Virus genome (UHGV): UHGV-0312702
Source: a virus
Reading direction: 5' to 3' (one strand)
DNA: 64,000 nt
Under the pieces are notes generated by a model that saw only the letters and a program-made list of their open reading frames with translations, had not been told where the DNA came from and did no database searches. Shown one piece after another: positions 10,898-23,824 of the stretch. The stretch's first letter is position 1. Each line of letters starts with the position of its first letter. The position numbers were made by a program, and so were the translations under genes.

Positions 10898-12244
10898 TTA
10901 TTTGATAAGAGATTTTAGAGCATTCTGGAGAGCCAGTTTGCGTTGTTCAGCGGTGTCTTCGGAAGCATTCTTAGCTGGTTCTTTTTCTTCTTCAACCAAA
11001 TCAGCTTCGCCGTCATTACCCACTTCTTCCATAGCATTGGAATGTTCAAGAACAGCACCAGCAGTTTCTTTCAGCTTGGTAATTTCTGATTCTTTTTCTT
11101 CCATTGCAGAAGCATGGGACGCGATAGTTTCATTAAGTTTCTGGTTAGCACCTTCCATAGCATTCATAAACAGAACACTCAGAGGGTTATCAAGACCAGC
11201 ACCTAAAATAGTCGTTGCAGCTTCTTTTGCGTCAAATCCAAAAGCTTCAGCAGAAGCAGAAATCTTATTAGTCAAATCTGACAAAGCAGCTTCCTGTTCT
11301 TTAGCTTTCATTTGAGCAACCTGAAGACGCAAAGCTTCTAGTTCTTGCTTTTCTTGTTCAGTCATTTCTTCACCTGAATTGTTAACGTTTAAACTTACAG
11401 GAGCCTCTTCAGAACCTTGTAAGTAATTTAAGAAATCATCTTGAGACATGATTGAGTTAATTAAACCAAGTTCAAGAGCTTCCTGAGCAGAATAAACATT
11501 CGCCTCAGTATTCTTTACAGCTTCTTCAGAGAGATTACGCGATTCAGCTACAAAGCCTGTAAAGGTTGCGTAGGTATCATTAATTCTCTTTTGAAGTCTT
11601 TCTTTGCTTTCTTCTGAAAGTGCTTGGAATGGTGAACCCATACCTTTAAACTCACCAGCTTTGATGACGTTAATTGTTACGCCATTCTTTTCAAATGCCT
11701 TAGTTAATTCCTGATGAACCATGATTACACCAATAGAACCAACATCTGCATCTGGTGATGCAATAATTTCTTCAGCAGAAGATGCAAGAGCGTATGCAGC
11801 GGAACAAGCGAACTCATCTACATAGGCAATAATTTTCTTTTGGCCTCTTGAAGCCATGATGTGACGTGCTAATTCAAAGCAACCTGAAGCTTCACCACCA
11901 CCAGAATCAATGTGCAGAACAATAGTCTTGATTGACTCATCTGCTAAAGCTTCGTCAAAGCCTCTACGTAAACCCTCATAAGAGCTTAAGCCACCTGTAC
12001 ACATTGCATCAATGAATGTCATACGATGGGTTAAACCACCCATAATAGGGATAATAGCAATATCATCTTTTACTTTTAAAAGACTTCTTGCTTCACCTTT
12101 GGGTTTATCAAAGTTTACTGCTGCTTGGACATCACCCAGCAATCTGTTATTCACATAAGTTGCTGCTGAGTGAGCTAATGATTCAGTGGCTAGTAAAGGT
12201 TGGTTGAATAATCTATCAGCAAGTCTGAAGATATTCGAACTCAT
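10898..12244 (-). CDS. prohead protease (S49/ClpP-like) fused to scaffold-like C-terminus, 448 aa
   Basis: N-terminal half has SppA/S49-like motifs (HIDSGGGEASG ... CSAAYALAS); C-terminal half is a charged coiled-coil (EEMTEQEKQELEALRLQVAQMKAKEQEA). Confidence 0.75.
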   Translation of the reverse strand: MSSNIFRLADRLFNQPLLATESLAHSAATYVNNRLLGDVQAAVNFDKPKGEARSLLKVKDDIAIIPIMGGLTHRMTFIDAMCTGGLSSYEGLRRGFDEALADESIKTIVLHIDSGGGEASGCFELARHIMASRGQKKIIAYVDEFACSAAYALASSAEEIIASPDADVGSIGVIMVHQELTKAFEKNGVTINVIKAGEFKGMGSPFQALSEESKERLQKRINDTYATFTGFVAESRNLSEEAVKNTEANVYSAQEALELGLINSIMSQDDFLNYLQGSEEAPVSLNVNNSGEEMTEQEKQELEALRLQVAQMKAKEQEAALSDLTNKISASAEAFGFDAKEAATTILGAGLDNPLSVLFMNAMEGANQKLNETIASHASAMEEKESEITKLKETAGAVLEHSNAMEEVGNDGEADLVEEEKEPAKNASEDTAEQRKLALQNALKSLIK

Positions 12245-14570: not shown

Positions 14571-16187
14571 TCAACGTCTAAGCCCCTCATATGGGTTTCC
14601 TCTCACTAAGTCTGTGTGAGCACCCATTGATGGTGGCTTGAATAATTTAACTTCGTTAAGACTGTTGAAAGCATCACTGGTAGCATCCACTTGGTCATCT
14701 TTAGTTTTACCATCACCACAAAAGCCTTCAAGCTCTTGGAAGTAAGCTTCATTCCAACTACCTCTCAAGACTTTTACAAGCCCAGCTTCAGAAGCAGCAG
14801 AAAACCCCGCAAATCGGGTAACTTTGTCTTTGTTTGTTGGTTTAGCTCTTGCTCGATAACCTTTCTCGGCAAGTTTCCTGATGAGGGATGTTGCGTAGGA
14901 TTTACCAGCAGCGCCTGGGTCTTGAGGGATAAAAATACCAGTTCGCTTACCGTCACTTTCAGCAGTCAAATTAATTTGTGTTTCGACTCCAGAGGGTCTA
15001 TCTCTAAATCTTACTACATCAATGATATAATAGCAACCGTCTTTTTTAGATTTACCCATCTTAACACCTGCTGTCCAGTCTGGATTAGGGTTAATCTCAG
15101 ATGGTAAAGTTGCTGCTAAGTCCCATGCCCTGACATCGAATACGTCTTCTGGGAGTGAATCAACAATCTCACACCACTGTCTTTGCCAATAGTTTGAACC
15201 TTCTGCACGAGCCTTCCAGTTACCGAAACGAAGTCTTGCAACGTTTACAGGAGTGTTGTTTTCCAACTTACCACGATACTTTGGTTCTAAGAAGTCAAGA
15301 ATTGGGTTATCATCAATCGTACCGGAGATGAAGGTGTATGTTTGAGGAATCTCAAGAGGGAACATTTCAAGAATCTTGTCTCTTTCCCAATCAGAAACCA
15401 TCACACCATCATTCATCACATACCAACGAATACGACCACACTTTTCAGGGTCTGGATAACCTTCTTCATCTAAGAATGGTTCTACCCAATCATAAATAAA
15501 ATGGTCCCTGTCTGGGTTCATGGAAATCTTCATGTATGAGTCACCTTCAGCACCAGAACGTAGACGAGTCTGTAGGTATGAAATCTGTGAAGCAGAGAAG
15601 TGTGTACCTTCGTCAAAGTAAATAGCTGAGTATTCAATACCCTGATGACCTTCAGCGTGCTTTTCAAGTTCTAGGTAGGTAAACTTGATAGTTGCCCCAG
15701 AAGGGAATGTGATAGTCATCTTCTGCTCGTGAGGAACCCCACCAAACTTACCAAACAGTTTCTTTGCAGCAGGCCACAAACCACCTTGTAACTGTGTCGT
15801 ATTTCGACGGAAATATACAGCATTATAATTAGGGTCTTCAATAAATCTTAAAGAGTCCATTAATAATGCAGCAGTTTTACCAGCACCAGCAGCACCACCA
15901 TATAGAACCAAGTCAGCATTGGTGTTTAAAAAGACCTCTTGAGAACCCGGCTGAGGGGCTACATAATTCTTATCAGTCATTAATTTGAAGATAAGTCTAA
16001 CTTGGTCTGGTGTGTATCTTAATAAAGTCAGAATTTGAGTTGGAAGGAATTTAGAGGGGTCTTTACCGAATGATTTAATAATTTCTTTTACTTCATCAGA
16101 AAGCCCCAACTCTCCAGCTAGGACTTTCCTAACATCTTCCACTCGCTTCTGCTTAACAGCGTTTAAGTCCATTAAGCACCTCCGCAA
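14571..16187 (-). CDS. terL: terminase large subunit, 538 aa
   Basis: Walker A ATPase motif (LVLYGGAAGAGKTAAL) in N-terminal half, nuclease-sized C-terminal half, followed by portal gene. Confidence 0.85.
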   Translation of the reverse strand: MRRCLMDLNAVKQKRVEDVRKVLAGELGLSDEVKEIIKSFGKDPSKFLPTQILTLLRYTPDQVRLIFKLMTDKNYVAPQPGSQEVFLNTNADLVLYGGAAGAGKTAALLMDSLRFIEDPNYNAVYFRRNTTQLQGGLWPAAKKLFGKFGGVPHEQKMTITFPSGATIKFTYLELEKHAEGHQGIEYSAIYFDEGTHFSASQISYLQTRLRSGAEGDSYMKISMNPDRDHFIYDWVEPFLDEEGYPDPEKCGRIRWYVMNDGVMVSDWERDKILEMFPLEIPQTYTFISGTIDDNPILDFLEPKYRGKLENNTPVNVARLRFGNWKARAEGSNYWQRQWCEIVDSLPEDVFDVRAWDLAATLPSEINPNPDWTAGVKMGKSKKDGCYYIIDVVRFRDRPSGVETQINLTAESDGKRTGIFIPQDPGAAGKSYATSLIRKLAEKGYRARAKPTNKDKVTRFAGFSAASEAGLVKVLRGSWNEAYFQELEGFCGDGKTKDDQVDATSDAFNSLNEVKLFKPPSMGAHTDLVRGNPYEGLRR

Positions 16188-16193
16188 ATAGAA

Positions 16194-16394
16194 TTATTCA
16201 GAGTCTGTAGCAGTCTCTTCTTTCTTAACTTCGAACTTTGCATCAACAGCATCAAGAAGTTCATCCATAGATGCTTCTTTGATATCGATACCAGTGGCTA
16301 CAGATAGTCTGTCTGCAATTGCCATGATAGTATTCTGCATAAACTCTAACTTCTTGTTAGCTTCATAAAGTTCTTTATAAACGGTCTCGCTCAT
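16194..16394 (-). CDS. hypothetical small acidic protein, 66 aa
   Basis: ORF immediately upstream of terminase. Confidence 0.4.
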   Translation of the reverse strand: MSETVYKELYEANKKLEFMQNTIMAIADRLSVATGIDIKEASMDELLDAVDAKFEVKKEETATDSE

Positions 16395-16616
16395 TATGTT
16401 TTCTCCAAATAATTAATTTTGTTTCTCCTTAAAAAAGACGGCACAGAGACCGTCAAGGAGAAACCACAATGTACGTCAGAGACATACTGTATAAGGCTTC
16501 TTATAAAGTATAACTCTGTAAAAAAGCCCTGTCTAAAAATACTCTTCGGTAGCGAAAGGAAGAATACTTATAGCAGGGCATTATTATTATTTTAATTGAG
16601 AGAGAGTAAAATAACT

Positions 16617-16692
16617 TGGAGAATCCGAAGGGACTCGAACCCTTATAAACCTGTTTTGCAGACAGGCACATAGCCATTTCTGTCACGGATTC
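16617..16692 (-). tRNA. tRNA-Cys (anticodon GCA)
   Basis: Hand-folded cloverleaf: acceptor CGGATTC pairs with GAATCCG, T-loop TTCGAGT, anticodon loop CTGCAAA, CCA encoded. Confidence 0.75.
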
Positions 16693-16696
16693 AAAT

Positions 16697-16789
16697 TGGA
16701 GGAAGATACCAGACTTGAACTGGTACACCGATTTCTCAGCTACTGGCAGTTTAGCAAACTGCTCCCTTACCTTTTAGGGTTAATCTTCC
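16697..16789 (-). tRNA. tRNA-Ser (anticodon GCT), class II with long variable arm
   Basis: Acceptor GGAAGAT/ATCTTCC, anticodon stem GCAGT/ACTGC with loop TTGCTAA, long variable arm, T-loop TTCAAGT. Confidence 0.7.
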
Positions 16790-16790
16790 A

Positions 16791-17525
16791 TTATTTCTGT
16801 AATGCGCTCTTCATTTCTGGTGTTGCAATAGTGTCAATCACACCAGTTTTACAAGCATCATCAAACCAGTCTGGTAAGATACCTGCTAAGAACCCATTGA
16901 TATTCGTTTTAAGGTACTCTGCAATAAGGGCAGCTTCTTCTTCAATCATCTGCACAACTTCATCTGCATAAGCTGTAATCTTTGAGATACCTTCATTAAT
17001 CTTACTAACAGCCTGATTAGCTAAATCAGAAACAGTATCAAGACCCTTATCAATAGCATCTTGTAAGTCACTTAATACATCATTAACGCTGTCTAGTGTA
17101 TCATTAATAGCATCAATAGCTTTTTGACCATACTCTGTAGCAACACCCATAATACCGCTGAATGGTGTACAACCAACTTGTTCTCCCGCTGCACCCATAA
17201 CATTGGAATATCCCTTTGCTACCTGCATACGTGATGAAAACTCGTCAATAGACTTTTGACCGTAGTCTGTTAGGGTCTTAGTAGTTGCTGTAGTGCTTGT
17301 CAGACTCGTTGTAAAGCTGTTTAGAAGGACTGTTGTAAGTCCAGCAGCAACAAGTTTTTCCTTCATTGCAGGGTCTGTTACAGAGCTAATAGAGCTTACA
17401 AGTGATGTAGAGGCAGCTACGGTTCCACCTAGAACTGCTGCACCAGTAATAAGGGGGTTAGAAAACCCTTTACCAGTTTTTAAGAGATTAAAAATCTCCT
17501 TACCTTGTCCTGTCATCTCTTTCAT
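16791..17525 (-). CDS. hypothetical Ser/Thr-rich protein embedded in tRNA island, about 245 aa
   Basis: ORF-track start (17588, GTG) would overlap tRNA-Phe; first ATG that clears the tRNA is at 17525. Confidence 0.5.
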   Translation of the reverse strand: MKEMTGQGKEIFNLLKTGKGFSNPLITGAAVLGGTVAASTSLVSSISSVTDPAMKEKLVAAGLTTVLLNSFTTSLTSTTATTKTLTDYGQKSIDEFSSRMQVAKGYSNVMGAAGEQVGCTPFSGIMGVATEYGQKAIDAINDTLDSVNDVLSDLQDAIDKGLDTVSDLANQAVSKINEGISKITAYADEVVQMIEEEAALIAEYLKTNINGFLAGILPDWFDDACKTGVIDTIATPEMKSALQK

Positions 17526-17543
17526 TAAGCACCTTTGAAATTG

Positions 17544-17618
17544 GTAGTCCAGTGGGATTTGAACCCTCTTCTCATGTTTTTCAGACACGCGCTTTAACCA
17601 TATAAGCTACTTGGACTA
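17544..17618 (-). tRNA. tRNA-Phe (anticodon GAA)
   Basis: Acceptor TAGTCCA/TGGACTA, anticodon stem CGTGT/ACATG, loop CTGAAAA, T-loop TTCAAAT. Confidence 0.7.
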
Positions 17619-17623
17619 TAAAT

Positions 17624-17700
17624 TGGGGTGACCTACGGGATTTGAACCCGTATAGACCATGTTCACAGCATGGGTCATTACCATTTATGATAAGGCCACA
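17624..17700 (-). tRNA. tRNA-His (anticodon GTG)
   Basis: Anticodon stem CCATG/CATGG with loop CTGTGAA; discriminator C; CCA encoded. Confidence 0.7.
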
Positions 17701-17730
17701 TTTAAGGACTCTCGTAAGAACCCTTAGAAG

Positions 17731-17806
17731 TGGCAGCGGCATAAGGATTTGAACCTTAATAGGACAGCTTCAGAGACTGTTGCATTGCCAGTTATGCTAT
17801 ACCGCT
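17731..17806 (-). tRNA. tRNA-Gln (anticodon CTG)
   Basis: Acceptor AGCGGTA/TGCCGCT, anticodon loop CTCTGAA, T-loop present. Confidence 0.65.
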
Positions 17807-17811
17807 AAATT

Positions 17812-17890
17812 TGGTACTCCATATCGGATTCGAACCGATACATAACACAGATTTTAAGTCTGGCCTCTCTGCCAATTGGAGTAATGGAGC
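17812..17890 (-). tRNA. tRNA with leucine anticodon TAA but class I architecture (short variable loop)
   Basis: Acceptor GCTCCAT/ATGGAGT, D-arm CTCC-AATTGGCAG-AGAG, anticodon stem CCAGA/TCTGT loop CTTAAAA, 7-nt variable loop, T-arm ATCGG-TTCGAAT-CCGAT, discriminator A. Confidence 0.6.
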
Positions 17891-17892
17891 AT

Positions 17893-17968
17893 TGGCGGGG
17901 GATGTTGGAATTGAACCAACTTCTTCGATTTCAAAGACCGAGGTTTTAACCTTGTAAACTAATCCCCT
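17893..17968 (-). tRNA. tRNA-Gln (anticodon TTG)
   Basis: Anticodon stem TCGGT/ATCGA loop CTTTGAA; T-arm GTTGG-TTCAATT-CCAAC; A1-C72 mismatch. Confidence 0.65.
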
Positions 17969-17976
17969 TTAAATCT

Positions 17977-18534
17977 TTACTTTCTTAGTGGATGAATAAA
18001 GAATGCCAACATAACTCTTTCCCTTGAGAATGCTCTTTCTTCTGGGACAACACTTTTAAGTTTCCACCCAACATAAATTCTCCAGTAAAATTGTTTACCA
18101 AAGACTTTAATTGATGGGATAAAAGCAAATAATCCCCAAGCATTGCTGTTCCACATTAGGAGATAACCTGTCTGATTATCTTCAGGGTTAGAACTTACGT
18201 TGATATTACCTTTCCACTTAGTAACATCTTTTACATCTCTTCCTAACACATGGTAAGAGAAGTTATAAGCTTTGTTTCTCCAGAGCCATCCAACTCTCTG
18301 CATATAAACACCGAGCTTACCAATCTTTCTAATCTTAGCCCATCGTTTGATATGACCTGCATCACCATCAATTGGGTTGTCATAAGTCTCCATCCATCTG
18401 AAACCAAAAGGCAGATGACCTTTCTTCTCACTGTAGAATGGGACTACGAAAGGTGCTAAGATAACTGCCAAGATTGCTGCAAATGGCTCTAACAAAGCTA
18501 AGAAAATCCATGAAGCATACTTCAAATATCTCAT
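17977..18534 (-). CDS. hypothetical membrane protein embedded in tRNA island, 185 aa
   Basis: ORF with hydrophobic N-terminus (IFLALLEPFAAILAVILAPFVVPF). Confidence 0.5.
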   Translation of the reverse strand: MRYLKYASWIFLALLEPFAAILAVILAPFVVPFYSEKKGHLPFGFRWMETYDNPIDGDAGHIKRWAKIRKIGKLGVYMQRVGWLWRNKAYNFSYHVLGRDVKDVTKWKGNINVSSNPEDNQTGYLLMWNSNAWGLFAFIPSIKVFGKQFYWRIYVGWKLKSVVPEERAFSRERVMLAFFIHPLRK

Positions 18535-18773
18535 TGTCTAATCCTAGTAAGGAGGTAAACATTATTATTTGTTTCTGAGTTTTCTGGTAAAGCTGTCTCA
18601 AAATTGACGCTTTTAAATTGTCTCCCACCAAAGTAATGACCAATAAATTTTTGTACTTTTATTGGGTCACATTCCCAGCCAACTTTCAAGAAAATGTGGG
18701 TATCTATAGTGGGAACCCTTACAAACTCAATACTATTGGAATTTTCATGTTCAACGACGATTAATGTTTGCAT
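18531..18773 (-). CDS. hypothetical protein, 80 aa
   Basis: ORF overlapping the start of the downstream gene by 4 nt. Confidence 0.4.
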   Translation of the reverse strand: MQTLIVVEHENSNSIEFVRVPTIDTHIFLKVGWECDPIKVQKFIGHYFGGRQFKSVNFETALPENSETNNNVYLLTRIRQ

Positions 18774-18791
18774 AAATCTCTCTTATTTATC

Positions 18792-18867
18792 TGGCGCAGG
18801 ATAAGGGACTTGAACCCCTATTAACAGCTTCGTAGACTGTTGCTCTATCCATTTGAACTAATCCTGC
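18792..18867 (-). tRNA. tRNA-Arg (anticodon ACG)
   Basis: Acceptor GCAGGAT/ATCCTGC, anticodon loop CTACGAA, CCA encoded. Confidence 0.7.
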
Positions 18868-18872
18868 AAAAT

Positions 18873-18950
18873 TGGTGTTCCAAGACGGATTCGAACCGTC
18901 ACTAGTACAAGGTTTGAGCTTGCATCCTCTGCCAATTGGGATACTGGAAC
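18873..18950 (-). tRNA. tRNA with leucine anticodon CAA but class I architecture
   Basis: Acceptor GTTCCAG/TTGGAAC, D-arm TCCC-AATTGGCAG-AGGA, anticodon stem GCAAG/CTTGT loop CTCAAAC, 6-nt variable loop, T-arm GACGG-TTCGAAT-CCGTC; only 84 nt available between flanking tRNAs. Confidence 0.6.
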
Positions 18951-18951
18951 A

Positions 18952-19026
18952 TGGTACTCACTAAAGGACTTGAACCTTTTTCTTCATCTTGTAAGGGTGA
19001 TGTTTTACCATATAAACTAAGCGAGT
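18952..19026 (-). tRNA. tRNA-Val (anticodon TAC)
   Basis: Acceptor ACTCGCT/AGTGAGT, anticodon loop CTTACAA, T-arm AAAGG/CCTTT. Confidence 0.65.
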
Positions 19027-19122
19027 GTGAAAGAGGTCTGAAGTTGTGCCACTAACTCAACTCCGTGGAATTTGTTACGGTCTTCAGTTGACTCAAAGTG
19101 GTCTTTCACTTGACCTCTGAAT
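19027..19122 (-). ncRNA. candidate structured small RNA in tRNA-cluster spacer (not a tRNA)
   Basis: 96-nt spacer with complementary ends (AGAGGTC ... GACCTCT) and nested complementary segments (GTGAAAGA/TCTTTCAC, CTGAAG/CTTCAG); no T-loop motif. Confidence 0.3.
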
Positions 19123-19198
19123 TGGTGCTCCCACAAGGATTCGAACCCTGATAAGTTGCTTACAAGGCAACCGTAATAGCCAATTATACGATAGGAGC
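19123..19198 (-). tRNA. tRNA-Thr (anticodon TGT)
   Basis: Anticodon stem GTTGC/GCAAC with loop CTTGTAA; T-loop TTCGAAT. Confidence 0.7.
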
Positions 19199-19205
19199 AT
19201 TAATT

Positions 19206-19280
19206 TGGAGCATCCAGAGGGAATCGAACCCTCAACCTCAGTTTGGAAGACTGTAATTTTCCCGTTTAAACTATGGATGC
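19206..19280 (-). tRNA. tRNA-Gly (anticodon TCC)
   Basis: Acceptor GCATCCA/TGGATGC perfect 7 bp, anticodon loop CTTCCAA. Confidence 0.7.
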
Positions 19281-19286
19281 ACTAAT

Positions 19287-19362
19287 TGGTGGAGAAGCAG
19301 GGAATTGAACCCTGTACTTAAGTTTGCAAAACTTATGTTTTAACCATGTAAACTACATCCCC
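19287..19362 (-). tRNA. tRNA-Ala (anticodon TGC)
   Basis: Anticodon stem TAAGT/ACTTA loop TTTGCAA; G3-U70 wobble pair present (Ala identity element); T-arm CAGGG-TTCAATT-CCCTG. Confidence 0.7.
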
Positions 19363-19368
19363 AATGTT

Positions 19369-19444
19369 TGGTACAGGTGGAGGGAATTGAACCCATCGTC
19401 TTACTGATTAAGAGTCAGCCGCATAACCATTTTGCTACACCTGC
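19369..19444 (-). tRNA. tRNA-Lys (anticodon CTT)
   Basis: Acceptor GCAGGTG/CACCTGT, anticodon loop CTCTTAA. Confidence 0.65.
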
Positions 19445-19451
19445 ATTAATT

Positions 19452-19528
19452 TGGTACACCTAGAGAGATTCGAACTCACACTGAGCAGATTCTAAGTCTG
19501 CTGCCTCTACCAGTTGGGCTATAGGTGC
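19452..19528 (-). tRNA. tRNA with leucine anticodon TAG but class I architecture
   Basis: Acceptor GCACCTA/TAGGTGT, D-arm GCC-CAACTGGTAGA-GGC, anticodon stem GCAGA/TCTGC loop CTTAGAA, 5-nt variable loop. Confidence 0.6.
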
Positions 19529-19786
19529 ATTAAATCTTTTTAGAGAACTTCTAAGAACCTAAGCAACAAGGTTCCACAACAAGCTGTAATAACCTTAGAA
19601 GCCCTCTAAAAAGACCTAAAAAGGTCTTTGCATAGTCTTGTTTAATCCGGTGACTAGAACCTTTGGAGAGCTTGATATTATCTCTTCTCCGTGACACCTA
19701 CTAGGTGCTTTACTGTGCGTGTACGACAATACACGAGGGATACCAAAGCAACATCCGAATGAAGCTTGGCTTTAAATCTTATTAGG

Positions 19787-19874
19787 CGGTAAGTAAAGGA
19801 GTCGAACCCTCACCGTATCTCTACAGTGGCAACTGTTTTCAAGACAGTTTGGCTACCATTAGCCGCTACCTACC
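19787..19874 (-). tRNA. tRNA-Ser (anticodon TGA), class II
   Basis: 88 nt, acceptor GGTAGGT/ACTTACC, anticodon stem ACTGT/ACAGT loop CTTGAAA, long variable arm; CCA not encoded. Confidence 0.6.
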
Positions 19875-19887
19875 CCTAATAAGACTT

Positions 19888-19970
19888 TGGCATGGGACGG
19901 AGGAGTTGAACCCCTTTGAAACGGTTTTGGAGGCCGTTGCTCATGCCTTAGAGTCTTAACATCGTCCCAC
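19888..19970 (-). tRNA. tRNA-Trp (anticodon CCA), atypically long 5' half
   Basis: Acceptor GTGGGAC/GTCCCAT, anticodon loop CTCCAAA, T-arm GGGG-TTCAACT-CCTC; D-arm region about 7 nt longer than canonical. Confidence 0.5.
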
Positions 19971-20112
19971 ACTATAATTCGAAACTTACCGTATTATCTC
20001 AACACTGTAAAGCCCCTTCTCAGATTATTTACATGTTCTGGAAAACATGAGATACAGACCACCTCCCTACAGGAAGACCCGCTTAGGTCGTCTAAGTAAT
20101 CTGCTAACTAAT

Positions 20113-20189
20113 TGGCACACCCTACAGGATTCGAACCTGTAACTAACGATTTAGAAGACCGTTGCTCTATCCAATTGAACTAAGGGTGC
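20113..20189 (-). tRNA. tRNA-Arg (anticodon TCT)
   Basis: Anticodon stem ACGGT/ATCGT loop CTTCTAA; acceptor GCACCCT/AGGGTGT. Confidence 0.65.
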
Positions 20190-20526
20190 ATTAATCTTTA
20201 AAGACTCTCTTAGAAAGCCCTTAAAGATGCCCACCTTATTAATCATACCGTGGGCTAGTACGCCAAATTCTTTGATGAGGGATTGGAAGACCTCACTGGT
20301 GTTTAGCCTATCAAGCTACTGCCAGAAAAACATTGTCGTTTGCATTTATTTTAAATTTGCAAAATAGACGCTACGCAACGAAAACTATTCAGAATATGTA
20401 CAACAAATTTCCCCACATTGTGTTACGTCTAACGCTCATGTATTGGTGTTTGAATTATACATATTATGAATTATTTTTAGTTACTATAAAGTAGTCACAT
20501 CTCAATGTCAACAACTTTATTGAAAT

Positions 20527-20601
20527 TGGTTGTAGGTGAGGGTATCGAACCCTCTTCTAACGGTTATCAGCCGTTTGCATTACCATTTATGCTAACCCAC
20601 A
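20527..20601 (-). tRNA. tRNA-Ile (anticodon GAT)
   Basis: Anticodon stem AACGG/CCGTT loop CTGATAA; T-arm GAGGG-TTCGATA-CCCTC. Confidence 0.7.
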
Positions 20602-20602
20602 A

Positions 20603-20680
20603 TTGGAGGTTCAGGTGGGAATCGAACCCACATTCATAGGGCTTATGAAACCCCTGCATTACCTTATCTGCGACTGAACC
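20603..20680 (-). tRNA. tRNA-Met (anticodon CAT), elongator-like
   Basis: Perfect acceptor GGTTCAG/CTGAACC, anticodon stem GGGGT/GCCCT loop TTCATAA. Confidence 0.6.
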
Positions 20681-20684
20681 ATAT

Positions 20685-20760
20685 TGGTAGAAGTGGAGGG
20701 ATTCGAACCCATCGCCTGTCAGATTAAAAGTCTGCCGCATCACCATTCTGCTACACTTCC
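20685..20760 (-). tRNA. tRNA-Lys (anticodon TTT)
   Basis: Acceptor GGAAGTG/CACTTCT, anticodon loop CTTTTAA. Confidence 0.65.
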
Positions 20761-20909
20761 ATTAAATTATCTTTGTAGATAAGCTACCCAGACTTGCTTA
20801 AGGTCTGTAGCGATGTGCCTTGTTGGGTTTAAATCTAGAATTTACCCTTTCACCCTTTGTGGTCGCATACTCACAGGTAAGCTTAATAGCTCACCTACAA
20901 AGATAATTA

Positions 20910-21041
20910 CCAGACCGTTGTTTATCATCTTAAGTGCTACCATTACACCAACTCGACATCTGCCGAGTGAAGGAATCGAACCTTCGCCTTTTCTTTACCG
21001 GAGAAATAGATTGTTTAAGTTTTGCTGTAAACGGTCTTCTG
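20910..21041 (-). repeat. bounded spacer unit D (CCAGACC ... TGCTGTAAACGGTCTTCTG) containing a tRNA-like T-arm
   Basis: Shares both end motifs with units at 21055, 21484, 21637; contains GAAGG-AATCGAA-CCTTC (tRNA T-arm signature at 20969-20985) but no canonical anticodon loop or acceptor pairing. Confidence 0.5.
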
Positions 21042-21054
21042 TAAATTTGTTGAG

Positions 21055-21128
21055 CCAGACCAAGTTTTAAATTTTCAAAATTAAATTGGCTTGAAATTTC
21101 ATACATTCTTGCTGAATTTGGTCTTCTG
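21055..21128 (-). repeat. bounded spacer unit A (CCAGACC ... TGCTGAATTTGGTCTTCTG)
   Basis: Same terminal motifs as units B, C, D; the two ends are mutually complementary (AGACC/GGTCT). Confidence 0.5.
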
Positions 21129-21215
21129 CTCCTTTAAAGAATACTCGCAAGAACTCTTTAAGGGAGGGGCTAAATAGCCCTCTCAAAACATCATTTTGAA
21201 ATACTTATTATAATT

Positions 21216-21293
21216 TGGCGGTTACGAAGGGATTTGAACCCTCATCATCTCCCGTGACAGGGGAGTATTTTAACCAGATTAAACTACATAACC
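21216..21293 (-). tRNA. tRNA-Asp (anticodon GTC)
   Basis: Anticodon stem CTCCC/GGGAG loop CTGTCAC; acceptor GGTTATG/CGTAACC. Confidence 0.65.
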
Positions 21294-21298
21294 TTTAT

Positions 21299-21386
21299 TG
21301 GTGTGCCGTGTAGGAGTCGAACCTACCGAGTCTCAATGACAAGGGATTTACAGTCCCCACCGCTACCATCTACGGGATAACGACAC
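21299..21386 (-). tRNA. tRNA-Tyr (anticodon GTA), class II
   Basis: 88 nt; acceptor GTGTCGT/ACGGCAC, anticodon stem GGGA/TCCC loop CTGTAAA, long variable arm. Confidence 0.65.
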
Positions 21387-21395
21387 ATTTTAATT

Positions 21396-21472
21396 TGGCG
21401 GTTAGTCAGGGATTCGAACCCTGTGCCATTCGCTTAACAGGCGACCGCACATACCTTATGTGCTTCCTAACC
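21396..21472 (-). tRNA. tRNA-Asn (anticodon GTT)
   Basis: Anticodon loop CTGTTAA; T-arm CAGGG-TTCGAAT-CCCTG. Confidence 0.65.
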
Positions 21473-21483
21473 TTAATACATTG

Positions 21484-21542
21484 CCAGACCGTGTTTTTCT
21501 TTTATCCGCAAAAAGTAGTTTGTTGCTGAATACGGTCTTCTG
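21484..21542 (-). repeat. bounded spacer unit B (CCAGACC ... TGCTGAATACGGTCTTCTG)
   Basis: 59-nt unit between tRNA-Asn and the second CAT tRNA with the same end motifs. Confidence 0.5.
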
Positions 21543-21548
21543 CAAAAT

Positions 21549-21625
21549 TGGAGGCGGGTGCAGGAGTCGAACCTGCCGATACCATGCTAATGAGACATGT
21601 GAGACGCCCTTTCTCTATACCCGCA
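21549..21625 (-). tRNA. tRNA with anticodon CAT, second copy (initiator Met or Ile-lysidine type), atypical
   Basis: Anticodon stem CATGT/GCATG loop CTCATTA (pyrimidine at 37); acceptor pairs only with a 1-72 mismatch or a 1-nt register shift; D-stem GAGA/TCTC. Confidence 0.5.
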
Positions 21626-21636
21626 ATTCTTAATGA

Positions 21637-21709
21637 CCAGACCAAATCTCTTCTTTGTCCGATTGAATGTCAGATGAATAAGATTAAATTTGCTGTAATT
21701 GGTCTTCTG
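21637..21709 (-). repeat. bounded spacer unit C (CCAGACC ... TGCTGTAATTGGTCTTCTG)
   Basis: 73-nt unit between the CAT tRNA and tRNA-Glu with the same end motifs. Confidence 0.5.
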
Positions 21710-21716
21710 TCAAAAC

Positions 21717-21791
21717 TGGTGTCGTAGACAGGATTCGAACCTGCGAGCAACTGATTGAAGGTCAGGTGGCTAACCATTTGCCTTCTACGAC
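21717..21791 (-). tRNA. tRNA-Glu (anticodon TTC), C at position 33
   Basis: Perfect acceptor GTCGTAG/CTACGAC, anticodon stem CTGA/TCAG with loop CCTTCAA. Confidence 0.55.
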
Positions 21792-21792
21792 A

Positions 21793-22149
21793 TTAAACCA
21801 TTGTAATTCCACTATGAACCTCTCTGTGGCAATTAGCGCATAGCAAAACACATTTATCAAGTTCTTTTTTAACCTTTTCCCAAGATGCACCCATAAGTTT
21901 TGATGGTGTATTCTCTTTTTCGTTTGGGTTAAGGTGATGCCATTCTAAAGCATTTTTACATTTATTATAGCCACAAATTATGCAACTATCGCCATAAAGC
22001 TTATATGCTTTCTCCCTATTGGCATCCTCTCTAAGTTTTGTCCTTAATGCACAACATTTTAGACAATTTACTCTATTACCGGCGTTACCATTCTTATGAA
22101 TGCTATGTTCAGTTAAACCATGAACTGGACATTCTTTTAAAAATCTCAT
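21793..22149 (-). CDS. HNH homing endonuclease, about 118 aa
   Basis: Cys-rich zinc-finger region plus HNH motif (EWHHLNP ... LLCANCHREVH); ORF-track start at 22227 overlaps tRNA-Pro, so the start is placed at the ATG at 22149. Confidence 0.7.
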   Translation of the reverse strand: MRFLKECPVHGLTEHSIHKNGNAGNRVNCLKCCALRTKLREDANREKAYKLYGDSCIICGYNKCKNALEWHHLNPNEKENTPSKLMGASWEKVKKELDKCVLLCANCHREVHSGITMV

Positions 22150-22166
22150 AGTAACCCCTTTAAATT

Positions 22167-22243
22167 TGGTCTCTGTTGGAGGACTTGAACCTCCGGCCTT
22201 ACCGCCCCAAACGGAACGCTCTACCAAGCTGAGCTAAACAGAG
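22167..22243 (-). tRNA. tRNA-Pro (anticodon TGG)
   Basis: Perfect acceptor CTCTGTT/AACAGAG, D-arm GCTC-AGCTTGGTA-GAGC, anticodon loop TTTGGGG, T-arm GGAGG-TTCAAGT-CCTCC. Confidence 0.75.
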
Positions 22244-22270
22244 ATAAACTTTTCAAACTCTATGTAACCA

Positions 22271-22299
22271 CTTTAACATTATTTTTTAGTGGTTGTCAA
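22271..22299 (-). promoter_or_regulatory. candidate sigma70-like promoter for the tRNA operon
   Basis: On - strand TTGACA, 17-nt spacer, TTAAAG, about 20 nt upstream of tRNA-Pro. Confidence 0.3.
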
Positions 22300-22408
22300 G
22301 AACTTTTTTAAAATATTTTTCAGTATCTTAGAAAAGCTCTCATTTCGTTTCTATGTAGAACATATTAAAGGGTATCAAACACATTGTCAATACCCTTTTT
22401 AAAACTTT

Positions 22409-23824
22409 TTACCAGATGTAACGGTCAATCATTACTGCTTTGAGCATTACGCTGATTGGGTCAAACTTCTCACCACCAAGCAGGGCTTTTAAAGTGGCTG
22501 GGGAGAACCCTGATACCATTGCTACACCGTTATCCTTAACAGACACTTCGCAAGTACCACTACGGTTTGCTAAGTACCAGAATACCAGTTGTGGCATTTC
22601 GTATCCAGCTTTTTTGTACTTACTACGAATTGCTTCAAAGTTTGTACGACCATTTGCACCATCAACCTGATTGAACTCCATATCAGAGAAGATGATAAGC
22701 TTACTTGGCATATCTTTCTGAGTCAAGTTGTTTCTCTTGCCTGTCTCAAGAATACGGTCAAAAGCTGCTTGTAAGTTGGTTGAACCATATTCAACATGAC
22801 GCATTACCTGACGGTGACGGTTTCGTAAATCACCACTCAGTTCGATGAAATGAGGGTTTGTTGAATAAACCATTAACTCGTTCTTAAAGCAACCTGTATT
22901 GCGTTCTGCTACATACAAGGCAAGTGATACACCAATATCGAGGGCAGTAATTGAGCCAAGATTCACCCAAGACATTGAGCTTGAAACATCAGTCATACAC
23001 AAGATGTTTTCACCTTCTGCCATCCAGTTTGGTAGTGCTTTCCACTGCTCATTAGCAACATCTGCATTACCATACTTGATAGATTTAATCACATCGTATG
23101 GATAAACAGCACCAGCATTAATCTTAGTCTCACCCTTTGATAAGGACTCAACGTAAGCTTTGTAGCGTTCTCCATCTTTACGGTTAAATAATTTTTGGTA
23201 ACGTGCAGCAGCAAGTGAAGGAATCTTACTGTAGTCAATCTTACCAAACTCATTAGCAGAGATTTTTTGTTCAACTGTATCAGATAGTGCAGACAGCAGT
23301 GTGCGGTACTCTTTCTCGCTCAAGTTTGCAAACTTACAGAAACGTTTTACAAACTGTTTGTGACGTGGTTTTACTCGTGGTAACCACTTAGCTGCTAAAC
23401 CTGCTGTTGCAGGGTCTAGTAAAGCTGCTTCTAAATGTTTGAAGGCATCTGTCTCAAAACGAGTACCTACAAAGATTTTGAAGTCATCAAAGCGACCAAG
23501 CTCTGCAATCTTATCCATAATGCGAAGAACCTGTGTAGGCTCTAAAACTTTATCTTCAATCGCTTGAAGTAAAACAGTTCGGAAAGCCTTACGCTCACCC
23601 ATACCTTCTCGTACATCTCGCATATGCAGTAAAATACGAACTGCAACATCAACATCCTCATGCAAAGCTTTGTAGAACAAGTCTGGTAAGATTTCTACAT
23701 TGCTACGGCTAGAACCAGCAGCTTTGTAAAAGTCTACAAGAGCAGACATTGATGAAGTATGGTTTACAGCACCATTTTCAGTTCGACCTGCATGAAGGTG
23801 CGCATGTTTAAATAATTCGCTCAT
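22409..23824 (-). CDS. rsr: Ro60/Rsr-like protein (TROVE-like N-terminal region plus vWA domain), 471 aa
   Basis: C-terminal vWA with MIDAS DxSxS (CMTDVSSSMS) followed by ...LIIFSDMEFN...; segment VYPYDVIKSIKYG ... ENILCMTDVSSSM parallels the Ro60 region preceding its vWA domain; recognition from memory, not searched. Confidence 0.65.
   Translation of the reverse strand: MSELFKHAHLHAGRTENGAVNHTSSMSALVDFYKAAGSSRSNVEILPDLFYKALHEDVDVAVRILLHMRDVREGMGERKAFRTVLLQAIEDKVLEPTQVLRIMDKIAELGRFDDFKIFVGTRFETDAFKHLEAALLDPATAGLAAKWLPRVKPRHKQFVKRFCKFANLSEKEYRTLLSALSDTVEQKISANEFGKIDYSKIPSLAAARYQKLFNRKDGERYKAYVESLSKGETKINAGAVYPYDVIKSIKYGNADVANEQWKALPNWMAEGENILCMTDVSSSMSWVNLGSITALDIGVSLALYVAERNTGCFKNELMVYSTNPHFIELSGDLRNRHRQVMRHVEYGSTNLQAAFDRILETGKRNNLTQKDMPSKLIIFSDMEFNQVDGANGRTNFEAIRSKYKKAGYEMPQLVFWYLANRSGTCEVSVKDNGVAMVSGFSPATLKALLGGEKFDPISVMLKAVMIDRYIW

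What the first reader, a model, noticed from the sequence alone, without database searches (positions are those of the whole stretch)
16617..22243. A 27-gene tRNA island covering all 20 amino acids, interrupted by three protein genes and an HNH endonuclease
By hand folding the set is Cys, Ser x2, Phe, His, Gln x2, Leu-type x3, Arg x2, Val, Thr, Gly, Ala, Lys x2, Trp, Ile, Met, a second CAT tRNA, Asp, Tyr, Asn, Glu and Pro. The second CAT tRNA (21549-21625) has a 1-72 mismatch or register shift, so it may be an initiator or a lysidine-type Ile tRNA. Two protein genes (245 aa Ser/Thr-rich; 185 aa membrane) are embedded among the tRNAs.
Basis: seen in the sequence. Interest (0 to 1): 0.5.

Follow-up and report, generated by a model that had tools for sequence, protein, structure and literature searches.

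The report
Phage tRNA island hiding Y-RNA genes
The stretch is the already-published tRNA gene cluster of a Felix O1-like phage, but its unannotated "spacers" also hold four small RNA genes resembling Y RNAs, the RNA partners of Ro60 proteins, just downstream of a Ro60-like protein gene.

Summary
All 27 tRNA-like genes sit on the minus strand at the stated coordinates. ARAGORN finds 25. Rfam's tRNA model and relaxed ARAGORN add Glu. The Trp gene is missed by every tool but is supported by compensatory changes. The window is a Felixounavirus, and its tRNA cluster is already published (relative Sf14: same gene order, 26 tRNAs, 19 amino acids).

Three of the 27 are non-canonical:
- Glu has C33.
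- Trp has about 7 extra bases between the acceptor and D stems.
- The second CAT tRNA has a conserved 1x72 mismatch and scores just under Rfam's threshold.

Initiator versus Ile2 stays unresolved for that CAT tRNA.

The less ordinary part is in the spacers at 20907-21712. Four tandem units share a bulged terminal stem followed by CAGCAA. One of them (U4) carries a circularly permuted tRNA-like domain, as in YrlA Y RNAs. The gene upstream (22409-23824, DUF2828/DUF7788) folds like Ro60.

The same RNA architecture lies beside this protein family, on the same strand, in very different phages (Listeria, Staphylococcus, Enterococcus, Bacillus, Campylobacter, Klebsiella, mycobacteriophage). Covariation is strong. 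Rfam misses most of these units.

Verdict: an ordinary tRNA island containing a probable, so far unannotated, Ro60-like/Y-RNA module. Expression and protein binding are untested.

The parts
22409..23824 (-). Ro60-like protein gene (471 aa; Pfam DUF2828 + DUF7788).
   Evidence: Pfam. AlphaFold2 model with pLDDT 89. The 12 best Foldseek PDB hits are all Ro60/TROVE proteins (E 3e-8 to 2e-6, TM 0.43-0.64). DxSxS (MIDAS) motif D279/S281/S283 invariant in 39 homologues.
22362..22390 (-). Promoter-like site, TTGACA-17-TAATAT
   Evidence: consensus match only
22270..22299 (-). Promoter-like site, TTGACA-18-TAAAGT with TG, just upstream of tRNA-Pro
   Evidence: consensus match only
22167..22243 (-). 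tRNA-Pro (TGG)
21793..22149 (-). HNH endonuclease gene (118 aa), inserted between tRNA-Pro and the Glu slot
   Evidence: Pfam HNH. Present at this site only in the window and phage nataliec; absent there from all 27 IMG/VR relatives.
21717..21791 (-). tRNA-Glu-like (TTC), variant allele with C33
   Evidence: Rfam tRNA 55.4 bits. ARAGORN at 85% threshold. Same allele only in L023, with a compensatory T-stem change; the other relatives checked carry a canonical Glu.
21634..21712 (-). Y-RNA-like unit U1 (short form): outer helix UGAC/GUCA, AGA/G bulge, inner helix AGACCAA/UUGGUCU, then CAGCAA
   Evidence: Model R1 gives 40.9 bits, E 3e-6.
21549..21625 (-). Second CAT tRNA (non-canonical)
   Evidence: ARAGORN. 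Rfam 28.5 bits, below the gathering score of 29. Present in 28/28 loci with T-stem covariation.
21481..21545 (-). Y-RNA-like unit U2 (short form)
   Evidence: R1 gives 42.1 bits, E 1.7e-6.
21396..21472 (-). tRNA-Asn (GTT)
21299..21386 (-). tRNA-Tyr (GTA), long variable arm
21216..21293 (-). tRNA-Asp (GTC)
21052..21131 (-). Y-RNA-like unit U3 (short form)
   Evidence: Not among the R1 matches with E up to 1.
20907..21044 (-). Y-RNA-like unit U4 (long, YrlA-like form): bulged terminal stem, CAGCAA, V hairpin, T arm, closed 7-bp acceptor-like hairpin, UG, D arm
20685..20760 (-). tRNA-Lys (TTT)
20604..20680 (-). tRNA with CAT anticodon (elongator type, G1-C72)
20527..20601 (-). tRNA-Ile (GAT)
20483..20511 (-). 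Promoter-like site, TTGACA-17-TATAGT (11 of 12)
   Evidence: consensus match only
20113..20189 (-). tRNA-Arg (TCT)
19888..19970 (-). tRNA-Trp-like (CCA), G73, with a 10-nt connector between the acceptor and D stems
   Evidence: Missed by ARAGORN and by Rfam's tRNA model.
19785..19874 (-). tRNA-Ser (TGA)
19452..19528 (-). tRNA-Leu (TAG) with a 5-nt variable loop
19369..19444 (-). tRNA-Lys (CTT)
19287..19362 (-). tRNA-Ala (TGC)
19206..19280 (-). tRNA-Gly (TCC)
19123..19198 (-). tRNA-Thr (TGT)
18952..19026 (-). tRNA-Val (TAC)
18873..18950 (-). tRNA-Leu (CAA) with a short variable loop
18792..18867 (-). tRNA-Arg (ACG)
18531..18773 (-). 80-aa ORF with no family match; absent from phage nataliec
17977..18534 (-). 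185-aa protein gene with a hydrophobic N-terminus (DUF7338)
17893..17968 (-). tRNA-Gln (TTG)
17812..17890 (-). tRNA-Leu (TAA) with a short variable loop
17731..17806 (-). tRNA-Gln (CTG)
17624..17699 (-). tRNA-His (GTG)
17542..17617 (-). tRNA-Phe (GAA)
16791..17525 (-).
16697..16789 (-). tRNA-Ser (GCT)
16617..16692 (-). tRNA-Cys (GCA)
16437..16454 (-). Terminator-like hairpin followed by TTTTTT, downstream of the last tRNA
   Evidence: consensus match only

Best explanation
The region is the tRNA gene cluster of a Felix O1-like phage (Felixounavirus). It appears to be transcribed leftward on the minus strand from promoter-like sites just after the Ro60-like gene, towards a terminator-like hairpin past tRNA-Cys.

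It holds 24 ordinary tRNA genes and three non-canonical ones: Glu with C33, Trp with an expanded acceptor-D connector, and a second CAT tRNA with a 1x72 mismatch. It also holds three protein genes and a mobile HNH endonuclease gene.

Embedded in the cluster is a second kind of RNA gene. Four tandem Y-RNA-like units (U1-U4) are each closed by a bulged terminal stem followed by the motif CAGCAA. U4 carries a circularly permuted tRNA-like domain (T arm, closed acceptor hairpin, D arm) like bacterial YrlA.

Inferred mechanism:
- The units are cut out of the tRNA precursor. Two of them are flanked directly by tRNAs, so RNase P and the 3'-end processing enzymes would release them.
- They bind the ring-shaped Ro60-like protein encoded just upstream, through the terminal stem and CAGCAA module.
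- The resulting particle would act on tRNA or other structured RNA during infection, in quality control or repair, or as a tether or decoy for a tRNA-binding host factor.
- That role would be consistent with the reported anti-defence phenotype of the orthologous protein in phage Bas63.

Shown here: the sequences, their structure and covariation, the fold of the protein, and the conserved neighbourhood. Not shown: expression, processing, protein binding and function.
For: Identity of the phage and the island:
- The stretch 16000-23000 is 94-96% identical to many Felixounavirus genomes.
- The tRNA order matches that annotated in phage nataliec and published for Sf14.

tRNAs.

The protein:
- AlphaFold2 model with pLDDT 89.
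- The top 12 PDB fold matches are all Ro60/TROVE proteins over about 520 columns.
- The MIDAS motif is invariant.

The units in this window and its close relatives:
- The GAAGACC and GGTCTGG motif pairs occur four times in 800 bases.
- They are conserved in 27 related loci.
- All four fold into the same bulged stem, and the outer helix covaries between paralogues: UGAC/GUCA, UUGC/GCAA, GAGC/GCUC, UUAC/GUAA.
- The acceptor-like hairpin of U4 is kept through complete sequence replacement: ACUCGGC/GUCGAGU, ACACG/CGUGU, ACCCUUC/GAAGGGU.

Link to the protein family across distant phages:
- In 75 loci encoding 39-48% identical proteins, a strict stem + CAGCAA pattern occurs 61 times on the gene strand and 2 times on the other strand.
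- Permuted 6-mers used as controls average 3.1 occurrences.
- 49 of the 61 lie within 500 nt of the gene, and none lies inside it.
- A covariance model built only from Felixounavirus U4 finds full-length matches in these loci (up to 65.6 bits, E 6e-12). 47 of its 48 matches are on the gene strand.
- On the alignment of 23 matches, 94.3% of cells pair against 39-44% when partners are slid. 30 of 33 pairs change on both sides, and 0 of 500 shuffles reach the observed values.
- Tandem units lie next to the gene in a mycobacteriophage and in Listeria, Klebsiella, Campylobacter, Enterococcus, Staphylococcus and Bacillus phages.
- Rfam's YrlA model gives full-length but sub-threshold matches to three long forms (28.7-38.9 bits).

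Literature:
Against: - There is no expression, processing or binding evidence.
- U4 gets no match to Rfam YrlA even at E up to 10.
- The canonical GNCGAA motif of YrlA is absent.
- Pfam's TROVE model does not match the protein, and a sequence search of the PDB finds nothing.
- The single-sequence folding energies of the units are not exceptional (z -1.0 to -1.8).
- The alignment used for the strongest covariation count was fitted to the model.
- One relative (L009) has lost the 3' half of U4, so U4 is dispensable at least in that phage.
Confidence: 0.78

Rival explanations
1. The repeated units are only processing or punctuation hairpins, or REP-like repeats, of the tRNA precursor. They would have no dedicated protein partner, and their nearness to the Ro60-like gene would be incidental.
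For: They lie between tRNAs in a probable polycistronic transcript. Their single-sequence folding z-scores are modest.
Against: The same stem + CAGCAA architecture follows the DUF2828 gene into unrelated phage families. That includes loci where the units are not between tRNAs, such as Staphylococcus phage BE02 and mycobacteriophage Samty. The strand bias is 61 to 2. A conserved single-stranded motif and tRNA-like modules are not expected of plain processing hairpins.
Confidence: 0.1
2. U4 and similar long units are decaying tRNA pseudogenes or recombination scars: the 3' half of one tRNA fused to the 5' half of the next. They would not be functional genes.
For: The island recombines through T arms. 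L009 carries a deletion from the U4 T arm to the tRNA-Lys T arm. In L020 and L021 the acceptor-like loop contains G-CCA, like a tRNA 3' end. A dimeric-tRNA origin has been proposed for YrlA.
Against: The two acceptor strands are complementary, and they stay so through three unrelated sequence versions. The T and D arms are near-invariant. The whole unit is closed by the conserved stem + CAGCAA module. The same design recurs in distant phages with covariation.
Confidence: 0.06
3. The motifs act at the DNA level, as promoters or operators or as homing-endonuclease recognition sites.
For: U1 and U4 contain TTGACA-like or TTTACA-like hexamers. HNH genes move around this island.
Against: No good -10 element lies at the right spacing. 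Helices keep pairing through G-U intermediates and compensatory changes, which matters only for RNA. The orientation relative to the protein gene is strictly conserved.
Confidence: 0.04
4. The second CAT tRNA is a working initiator-type or lysidine-Ile tRNA, rather than a non-decoding tRNA-like element that mainly serves as a processing handle between U1 and U2.
For: The 1x72 mismatch is conserved, with G2:C71, C3:G70, G4:C69 and A11:U24 as in E. coli tRNA-fMet (the E. coli features are from established knowledge). It is kept in 28 of 28 loci with T-stem covariation.
Against: The three G:C pairs of the anticodon stem are absent. Position 37 is U. There is an extra base between the acceptor and D stems. 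Rfam gives 28.5 bits, below its threshold. In Sf14 the orthologue is not classed as fMet, and its Ile2 score is low at 22.4.
Confidence: 0.35

Closest known systems
tRNA gene cluster of Felix O1-like phages (Ounavirinae), for example Shigella phage Sf14 and Escherichia phage nataliec
   Same: Same genes in the same order: Pro, Glu, Met, Asn, Tyr, Asp, Lys, Met, Ile, Arg, Ser, Leu, Lys, Ala, Gly, Thr, Val, Leu, Arg, Gln, Leu, Gln, His, Phe, Ser, Cys. The DNA is 94-96% identical to many genomes.
   Different: This genome carries an HNH insertion after tRNA-Pro and a variant Glu allele with C33. The Trp-like gene is not annotated in nataliec and is not among the 26 tRNAs counted for Sf14.
YrlA Y RNAs (Rfam RF02553; Chen et al. 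2014, PMC4201824), the partners of bacterial Ro60 (Rsr)
   Same: For U4: terminal stem made by the 5' and 3' ends, V hairpin, T arm, closed acceptor-like hairpin, D arm. It is encoded within 1.5 kb of a Ro60-like gene on the same strand. Long forms in related loci give full-length sub-threshold YrlA matches.
   Different: The protein-binding module carries CAGCAA after a bulged stem instead of GNCGAA. U4 itself gets no Rfam match. The units come in tandem arrays of 2-5 that include short forms without a tRNA-like domain. The partner protein is of the DUF2828/DUF7788 type.
Yrl1 and Yrl2 of Thermus phage phiLo and its Ro60 (PMC12135203; PDB 9KOP, 9L5Y)
   Same: A phage-encoded Ro60-like ring protein with small stem-bulge-stem RNAs encoded beside it. 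phiLo Ro60 is among the best fold matches.
   Different: The phiLo RNAs carry the CGAA motif and lie upstream of the gene. The protein sequences are only about 14-16% identical.
T4 segB, a homing endonuclease gene inside the T4 tRNA gene cluster (PMC13096335 and established knowledge)
   Same: A free-standing endonuclease gene sits between tRNA genes, is present or absent among close relatives, and is linked to a variant neighbouring tRNA allele.
   Different: HNH family rather than GIY-YIG. Cleavage and homing were not tested.

Membership tests
Canonical bacterial-type tRNA genes | Cloverleaf recognised by ARAGORN and/or Rfam RF00005 at its gathering score (29 bits) | tested here: met
   Met for 24 genes by default ARAGORN. 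22 of these also score 43.6-65.2 bits on RF00005. Ser-TGA and Tyr were reported under the related tRNA-Sec model because of their long variable arms.
Canonical bacterial-type tRNA genes | U33, a 2-nt connector at positions 8-9, a purine at 37, and a paired 1-72 position | tested here: not met
   Not met by three genes. Glu-like has C33. Trp-like has a 10-nt connector. The second CAT tRNA has a 1x72 mismatch, a 3-nt connector, U37, and 28.5 bits against 29.
YrlA (Rfam RF02553) | Reaches Rfam's gathering score (69 bits) | tested here: not met
   No match for U4 at E up to 10. Related long forms reach 28.7-38.9 bits.
YrlA (Rfam RF02553) | tRNA-like module in permuted order: V, T arm, closed acceptor-like hairpin, D arm, enclosed by a stem made from the 5' and 3' ends | tested here: met
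   U4 structure. Pairing 97.9% among orthologues and 94.3% with 30 of 33 covarying pairs across distant loci.
YrlA (Rfam RF02553) | GNCGAAN0-1G motif near the 5' end | tested here: not met
   The units read (G/A)CAGAAGACC...CAGCAA. The Rfam consensus reads acggCGAAUGC.
YrlA (Rfam RF02553) | Encoded within about 4 kb of a Ro60 orthologue, on the same strand | tested here: met
   The units lie 0.7-1.5 kb downstream of 22409-23824 on the same strand. The same holds in distant loci.
YrlA (Rfam RF02553) | Bound by Ro60 in vivo; substrate of TruB and DusA | not testable with these tools
   Needs immunoprecipitation and modification mapping.
Ro60 / TROVE proteins | Ring of helical repeats plus a C-terminal vWA domain | tested here: met
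   Foldseek: the top 12 PDB matches are all Ro60 or TROVE, TM 0.43-0.64 over about 520 columns, from a model with pLDDT 89.
Ro60 / TROVE proteins | Sequence match to the Pfam TROVE model or to solved Ro60 sequences | tested here: not met
   Pfam reports only DUF2828 and DUF7788 at E up to 0.01. phmmer against PDB sequences finds no Ro60.
Ro60 / TROVE proteins | MIDAS motif (DxSxS) in the vWA domain | tested here: met
   D279, S281 and S283 are invariant in 39 homologues.
Bacterial initiator tRNA (fMet) | 1x72 mismatch, G2:C71, C3:G70, A11:U24 | tested here: met
   Second CAT tRNA read in ARAGORN's register. The mismatch is present in all 28 loci.
Bacterial initiator tRNA (fMet) | Three consecutive G:C pairs (29-31 with 39-41) in the anticodon stem; recognised by an fMet isotype model | tested here: not met
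   The stem is CAUGU/GCAUG. The Sf14 orthologue is not classed as fMet by tRNAscan-SE (published result for a relative, not run here).
tRNA-Ile2 (lysidine type) | Recognised by an Ile2 isotype model | tested here: inconclusive
   Only published scores for the Sf14 orthologues are available: 22.4 and 28.6, both below several other isotypes. tRNAscan-SE could not be run here.
HNH homing endonuclease | HNH motif, and presence/absence polymorphism at one site among close relatives | tested here: met
   Pfam HNH 22.5 bits against a cut-off of 21.4. Present at the Pro/Glu junction in the window and in nataliec only. Paralogues sit elsewhere in the island in 7 relatives.

The most novel reading that the evidence does not exclude
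The four units would belong to a widespread, so far uncatalogued class of phage Y RNAs.

Defining features:
- A terminal stem, consensus AGR...YCU-G.
- The single-stranded motif (A)CAGCAA directly after it.
- A variable effector module: none, a T arm alone, or a whole permuted tRNA.

This class would be the RNA partner of the DUF2828/DUF7788 Ro60-like proteins. These proteins are found in at least 710 sequenced phages of very different lineages, usually beside tRNA arrays. The particle would be a general phage device for tRNA surveillance or anti-defence.
Probability: 0.55. Interest if true: 0.75.

Novelty: new variant of a known kind. Interest (0 to 1): 0.55.

Why it matters
The tRNA island itself adds little: it is a published feature of Felix O1-like phages.

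Locating the Y-RNA-like genes matters more, for three reasons:
- It gives exact candidate RNA partners for a phage Ro60-like protein that has been reported to counter a bacterial defence system. Its RNA partners had only been guessed at.
- It defines a simple signature, stem + CAGCAA, that finds such RNAs next to this protein family in many phage lineages, including therapeutic Listeria, Staphylococcus, Enterococcus and Campylobacter phages. Current annotation pipelines and Rfam miss most of them.
- It links Ro60-type particles to phage tRNA arrays. That makes binding, processing and anti-defence experiments directly designable.

The non-canonical Trp, Glu and CAT tRNAs and the short-armed Leu tRNAs are also concrete test cases for how far E. 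coli's tRNA-handling enzymes tolerate odd substrates.

Tried and rejected
- **PDB sequence search with the 471-aa protein:** no Ro60 match. The link needed a structure prediction.
- **MAFFT alignment of nine distant long-form units:** misaligned in the acceptor and D region, so it was not used for a model. The model was built from Felixounavirus orthologues instead.
- **Rfam YrlA on U4:** no match even in a 271-base search at E up to 10.
- **Promoter and terminator scan:** the promoter count does not exceed shuffles (15 against 14.4). Only the best-scoring sites are reported, and only as consensus matches.
- **A fifth strict-pattern hit at 18282-18490:** it lies inside the conserved DUF7338 ORF with a 209-nt span and is treated as chance.
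- **Weak tmRNA and permuted-tmRNA matches** (15-23 bits), and ARAGORN's 'tmRNA*' call that starts next to the U4 orthologue in L021: judged artefacts of tRNA-like pieces.
- **R1 matches spanning two adjacent tRNAs** (20478-20605 and 19240-19367, E 0.065 and 0.25): the dimeric-tRNA artefact that Chen et al. warned about.
- **The 4-bp 'AC' helix that RNAfold draws in U4 (CUUA/UAAG):** not conserved in L025, L018 or L019 by eye, so it was left out of the model.
- **Papers:** the supplementary phage list of Chen et al. 2014 is not held, and the 2020 review (PMC10870794) is not held. Whether any DUF2828-type locus was in their phage set could not be checked.
- **Codon-usage comparison with the host:** not repeated. 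The published Sf14 analysis is cited instead.

Full report
**1. Checking the observation**

ARAGORN with default settings finds 25 tRNA genes in the 64-kb window. Rfam's tRNA model scores 22 of them at 43.6-65.2 bits. The long-armed Ser-TGA and Tyr are reported under the related tRNA-Sec model.

Rfam adds a 26th gene at 21720-21791 (55.4 bits). ARAGORN calls it tRNA-Glu (TTC) at 21717-21791 once its threshold is lowered to 85%. Its anticodon loop is CCUUCAA, so position 33 is C.

No tool calls it; its best match is 23 bits to tRNA-Sec. The reason is that 10 bases instead of 2 separate the acceptor stem from a 3-bp D stem. It is nevertheless a selected cloverleaf:
- It is present in 24 of 28 related loci.
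- On 10 distinct sequences, 99.5% of cells pair.
- Six pairs in the D, anticodon and T stems change on both sides. None does so when partners are slid by 1-3 columns.
- It has A1-U72 or G1-U72, G73 and the loop CUCCAAA. By memory these match E. coli tRNA-Trp.

The second CAT tRNA is at 21549-21625, as stated. So all 27 loci exist with the stated isotypes.

The embedded ORFs are also as described. They are DUF7217 (E 1.8e-88), DUF7338 (E 1.5e-61), an 80-aa ORF with no family, and an HNH gene.

**2. What the region is**

The stretch 16000-23000 is 94-96% identical to many Escherichia and Salmonella Felixounavirus genomes. 202 phage records cover at least 80% of it.

The tRNA cluster is annotated in relatives such as phage nataliec. 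It has been analysed in print for the Moogle-like phage Sf14, which has the same gene order, 26 tRNAs and 19 amino acids, with Trp not counted. The island as such is therefore already known.

**3. The unusual tRNAs**

*Glu.* The C33 allele occurs only in the window, in nataliec and in L023. The other relatives checked carry a different, canonical Glu gene in the same slot. The window and L023 differ by a compensatory T-stem change, so the allele is under structural selection.

*HNH and variant alleles.* In the window and in nataliec the C33 allele sits next to an HNH gene inserted between tRNA-Pro and the Glu slot. None of the 27 IMG/VR relatives has that insertion. Paralogous HNH genes sit elsewhere in the island in 7 relatives, and in L004 one lies about 165 bases from an alternative Trp allele. 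I infer homing-endonuclease traffic with co-converted, perhaps cleavage-resistant, tRNA alleles. This resembles segB in the T4 tRNA cluster.

*The second CAT tRNA.*
- It is kept in 28 of 28 loci with T-stem covariation.
- Position 1 is always a pyrimidine opposite C72.
- It has G2:C71, C3:G70, G4:C69 and A11:U24, as in E. coli tRNA-fMet.
- It lacks the three G:C pairs of the anticodon stem and has U37.
- It has an extra base before the D stem, and scores 28.5 bits where Rfam requires 29.
- Published tRNAscan-SE scores for the Sf14 orthologue favour neither fMet nor Ile2.

Its identity stays open.

*Leu.* The three Leu tRNAs have Leu-type D arms (3-bp stem, loop AAYUGGYAGA) and A73. Their variable loops are only 5 to about 8 nt, not a long arm. 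In Sf14 they are still 'consistent' with the Leu isotype model.

**4. The spacers are not empty**

Reading the minus strand showed four pairs of (G/A)CAGAAGACC ... GGTCTGG between 21712 and 20907. All four pairs are kept in the 27 related IMG/VR loci.

Each unit folds into the same base:
- a 4-bp outer helix;
- a 3-nt AGA bulge opposite a single G;
- a 7-8-bp inner helix AGACCNN/NNGGUCU;
- three bases, then CAGCAA.

The outer helix differs between paralogues but always pairs: UGAC/GUCA, UUGC/GCAA, GAGC/GCUC, UUAC/GUAA. The variable end of the inner helix covaries as well, AA/UU or GU/AC.

U1-U3 are short, about 65-80 nt. U4 (20907-21044) contains, in order:
- a hairpin with a 7-nt loop;
- a perfect T arm, GAAGG-UUCGAUU-CCUUC;
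- a 7-bp hairpin, ACUCGGC-agau-GUCGAGU;
- UG;
- a D arm, GUGU-AAUGGUA-GCAC.

This is a tRNA in circularly permuted order with a closed acceptor stem, which is the published design of YrlA Y RNAs.

Among orthologues the acceptor-like hairpin is replaced wholesale yet still pairs. The versions are ACACG/CGUGU and ACCCUUC/GAAGGGU, the latter with G-CCA in its loop. Pairing is 100%, and three pairs change on both sides.

**5. The neighbouring protein**

The ORF at 22409-23824 lies on the same strand, 0.7-1.5 kb upstream of the units. It matches only Pfam DUF2828 and DUF7788 and no PDB sequence.

An AlphaFold2 model built from 39 homologues has pLDDT 89. Its 12 best Foldseek matches in the PDB are all Ro60 or TROVE proteins. 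They include Xenopus Ro60, Deinococcus Rsr and Thermus phage phiLo Ro60, at E 3e-8 to 2e-6 and TM 0.43-0.64 over about 520 columns. The DxSxS MIDAS motif is invariant.

A preprint on the Felixounavirus Bas63 reached the same structural conclusion for gp130. It found that gp130 counters the ppl defence, and it speculated that some annotated tRNAs might be Y RNAs, without locating any.

**6. The RNA-protein link across phages**

The association was tested in 75 IMG/VR loci whose proteins are 39-48% identical to the window's. The strict pattern was an AGR-initiated stem of 6-11 bp, then 0-4 nt, then CAGCAA, then the complementary strand followed by G. Results:

| Measure | Result |
|---|---|
| Occurrences on the gene strand | 61 |
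| Occurrences on the opposite strand | 2 |
| Mean for 59 permuted 6-mers | 3.1 (the only high ones are overlapping frames of the same motif) |
| Units within 500 nt of a gene end | 49 of 61 |
| Units inside the gene | 0 |
| Loci with at least one strict unit within 1.5 kb of the gene | 38 of 75 (some others use stems that start TTGG, which the strict pattern excludes) |

In the window the pattern finds the four units, one probable chance hit inside an ORF, and nothing on the plus strand.

A covariance model built only from 13 Felixounavirus U4 orthologues (R1) was run on 753 kb:
- It finds full-length matches in the distant loci: 65.6 bits (E 6e-12), 56, 45 and 44.7 bits, and others.
- 47 of its 48 matches with E up to 1 are on the gene strand.
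- It also picks up U1 and U2 in the window.

On the 23-sequence alignment of its matches, 94.3% of cells pair against 39-44% in slid controls. 30 of 33 pairs change on both sides (162 cells against 19-38), and no shuffle reaches the observed values. That alignment was fitted to the model, which favours the structure. The size of the gap is still large.

The protein family has tblastn matches in 710 phage records. Tandem arrays of 2-5 units sit beside the gene in these named phages:
- mycobacteriophage Samty
- Listeria phage LP-083-2
- Klebsiella phage phi1_175008
- Campylobacter phage CP8
- Enterococcus phage EfV12-phi1
- Staphylococcus phage BE02
- Bacillus phage Izhevsk

In most of these the gene also lies next to a tRNA array. 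More distant IMG/VR loci, with 29-40% identical proteins, show the same architecture.

**7. Relation to known families**

Rfam has a YrlA family (RF02553, gathering score 69 bits). It gives full-length but sub-threshold matches to three long forms: L108 at 38.9 and 28.7 bits, and Samty at 37.9 bits. It gives none to the window's U4, even at E up to 10.

Its consensus starts acggCGAAUGC, which is the published GNCGAA motif. The units here carry CAGCAA after the stem instead.

The units therefore work like YrlA, and U4 shares the tRNA-like module. They fail two defining tests of RF02553 membership: the score and the 5' motif. I file them as a variant class.

Phage Y RNAs as such are known, in mycobacteriophages, CcrColossus, Bacillus phage G and phiLo. 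In the paper library I found no description of them for Felixounavirus or for DUF2828-type proteins. The phage list of Chen et al. could not be read.

**8. Most likely mechanism**

Shown:
- The RNA sequences, their structure and covariation.
- The protein's fold.
- The conserved, co-oriented neighbourhood.

Inferred:
- The island is transcribed from promoter-like sites at 22390-22362 and 22299-22270 (and 20511-20483) towards a terminator-like hairpin at 16454-16437.
- tRNA processing on both sides releases U1 (between Glu and the second CAT tRNA) and U2 (between that tRNA and Asn).
- The stem + CAGCAA module binds the Ro60-like ring.
- The tRNA-like module of U4 engages a tRNA-binding factor.
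- The particle serves tRNA or structured-RNA surveillance, or anti-defence.

The Salmonella rsr-yrlBA-rtcBA operon described in the literature, an RtcB ligase gene 1.3 kb from the Listeria phage homologue, and the Bas63 phenotype point the same way.

**9. Verdict**

The added value is the exact location and signature of four probable Y-RNA genes and their protein partner. This is a new variant of a known kind and needs expression and binding experiments.

Noticed in passing
window 20761-20903 (-): A 143-nt spacer between U4 and tRNA-Lys folds into a multibranched structure closed by a 19-bp stem (MFE -45 kcal/mol, z -4.1, 0 of 200 shuffles as stable). It is present in 20 of 27 relatives and has no Rfam match. 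It may be another structured RNA or an RNase III-type processing site.
   Followed up: partly
window 19529-19784 (-) and 19027-19122 (-): Two more strongly structured spacers. One is 256 nt (z -3.85, with a hairpin of about 30 bp). The other is 96 nt between tRNA-Thr and tRNA-Val (z -3.4, contains GAAGACC). Both are conserved in 25-26 of 27 relatives and have no Rfam match.
   Followed up: partly
window 17812-17890, 18873-18950, 19452-19528 (-): All three Leu tRNAs lack the long variable arm that bacterial tRNA-Leu normally has; their loops are 5 to about 8 nt. They keep a Leu-type D arm and A73. They are conserved in all relatives examined. Whether the truncation protects them from nucleases that target long-armed tRNAs is speculation.
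   Followed up: partly
L004 11394-11464 with an HNH at 11629-11880; L015, L017, L018, L023, L025, L028: Paralogous HNH genes (40-49% identical) sit at other positions in the island in seven relatives. L004 carries a different, 71-nt Trp allele beside one of them. This suggests endonuclease-linked allele replacement within the tRNA island.
   Followed up: partly
L009 about 10390-10500: One relative has a deletion that joins the T arm of U4 to the T arm of tRNA-Lys, removing the 3' half of U4. T arms act as recombination sites, and U4 is dispensable in that phage.
   Followed up: no
L020 10451-10586 and L021 10396-10530; also L085 5526-5637 and L108 8483-8607: In several long-form units the loop that closes the acceptor-like hairpin reads N-CCA (for example G-CCA-AACA). 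This looks like a relic or functional tRNA 3' end. Cleavage there by RNase P, as reported for M. smegmatis YrlA, would yield a two-piece tRNA-like RNA.
   Followed up: no
L115 (Listeria phage LP-083-2) 1429-1980 and 5815-7026: A ROOL RNA match (87.4 bits, just under the gathering score of 99.1) lies about 650 bases upstream of the Y-like units and about 1 kb upstream of the Ro60-like gene. An RtcB-like RNA ligase gene lies 1.3 kb downstream of that gene.
   Followed up: no
L081 3734-3833: One distant unit encloses a tRNA-like insert in normal order (D arm, anticodon arm, T arm), with the stem + CAGCAA module in place of the acceptor stem. The effector module of this RNA class is therefore interchangeable.
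   Followed up: no
phage record GU169904.1: A record named Staphylococcus phage SA1 encodes a protein 97% identical to this Escherichia/Salmonella phage protein. The record probably contains Felix O1-like sequence rather than a true staphylococcal phage gene.
   Followed up: no
window 18282-18490 (-): A fifth match to the strict stem + CAGCAA pattern (9-bp stem, 209-nt span) lies inside the conserved DUF7338 coding sequence. It is treated as chance.
   Followed up: no
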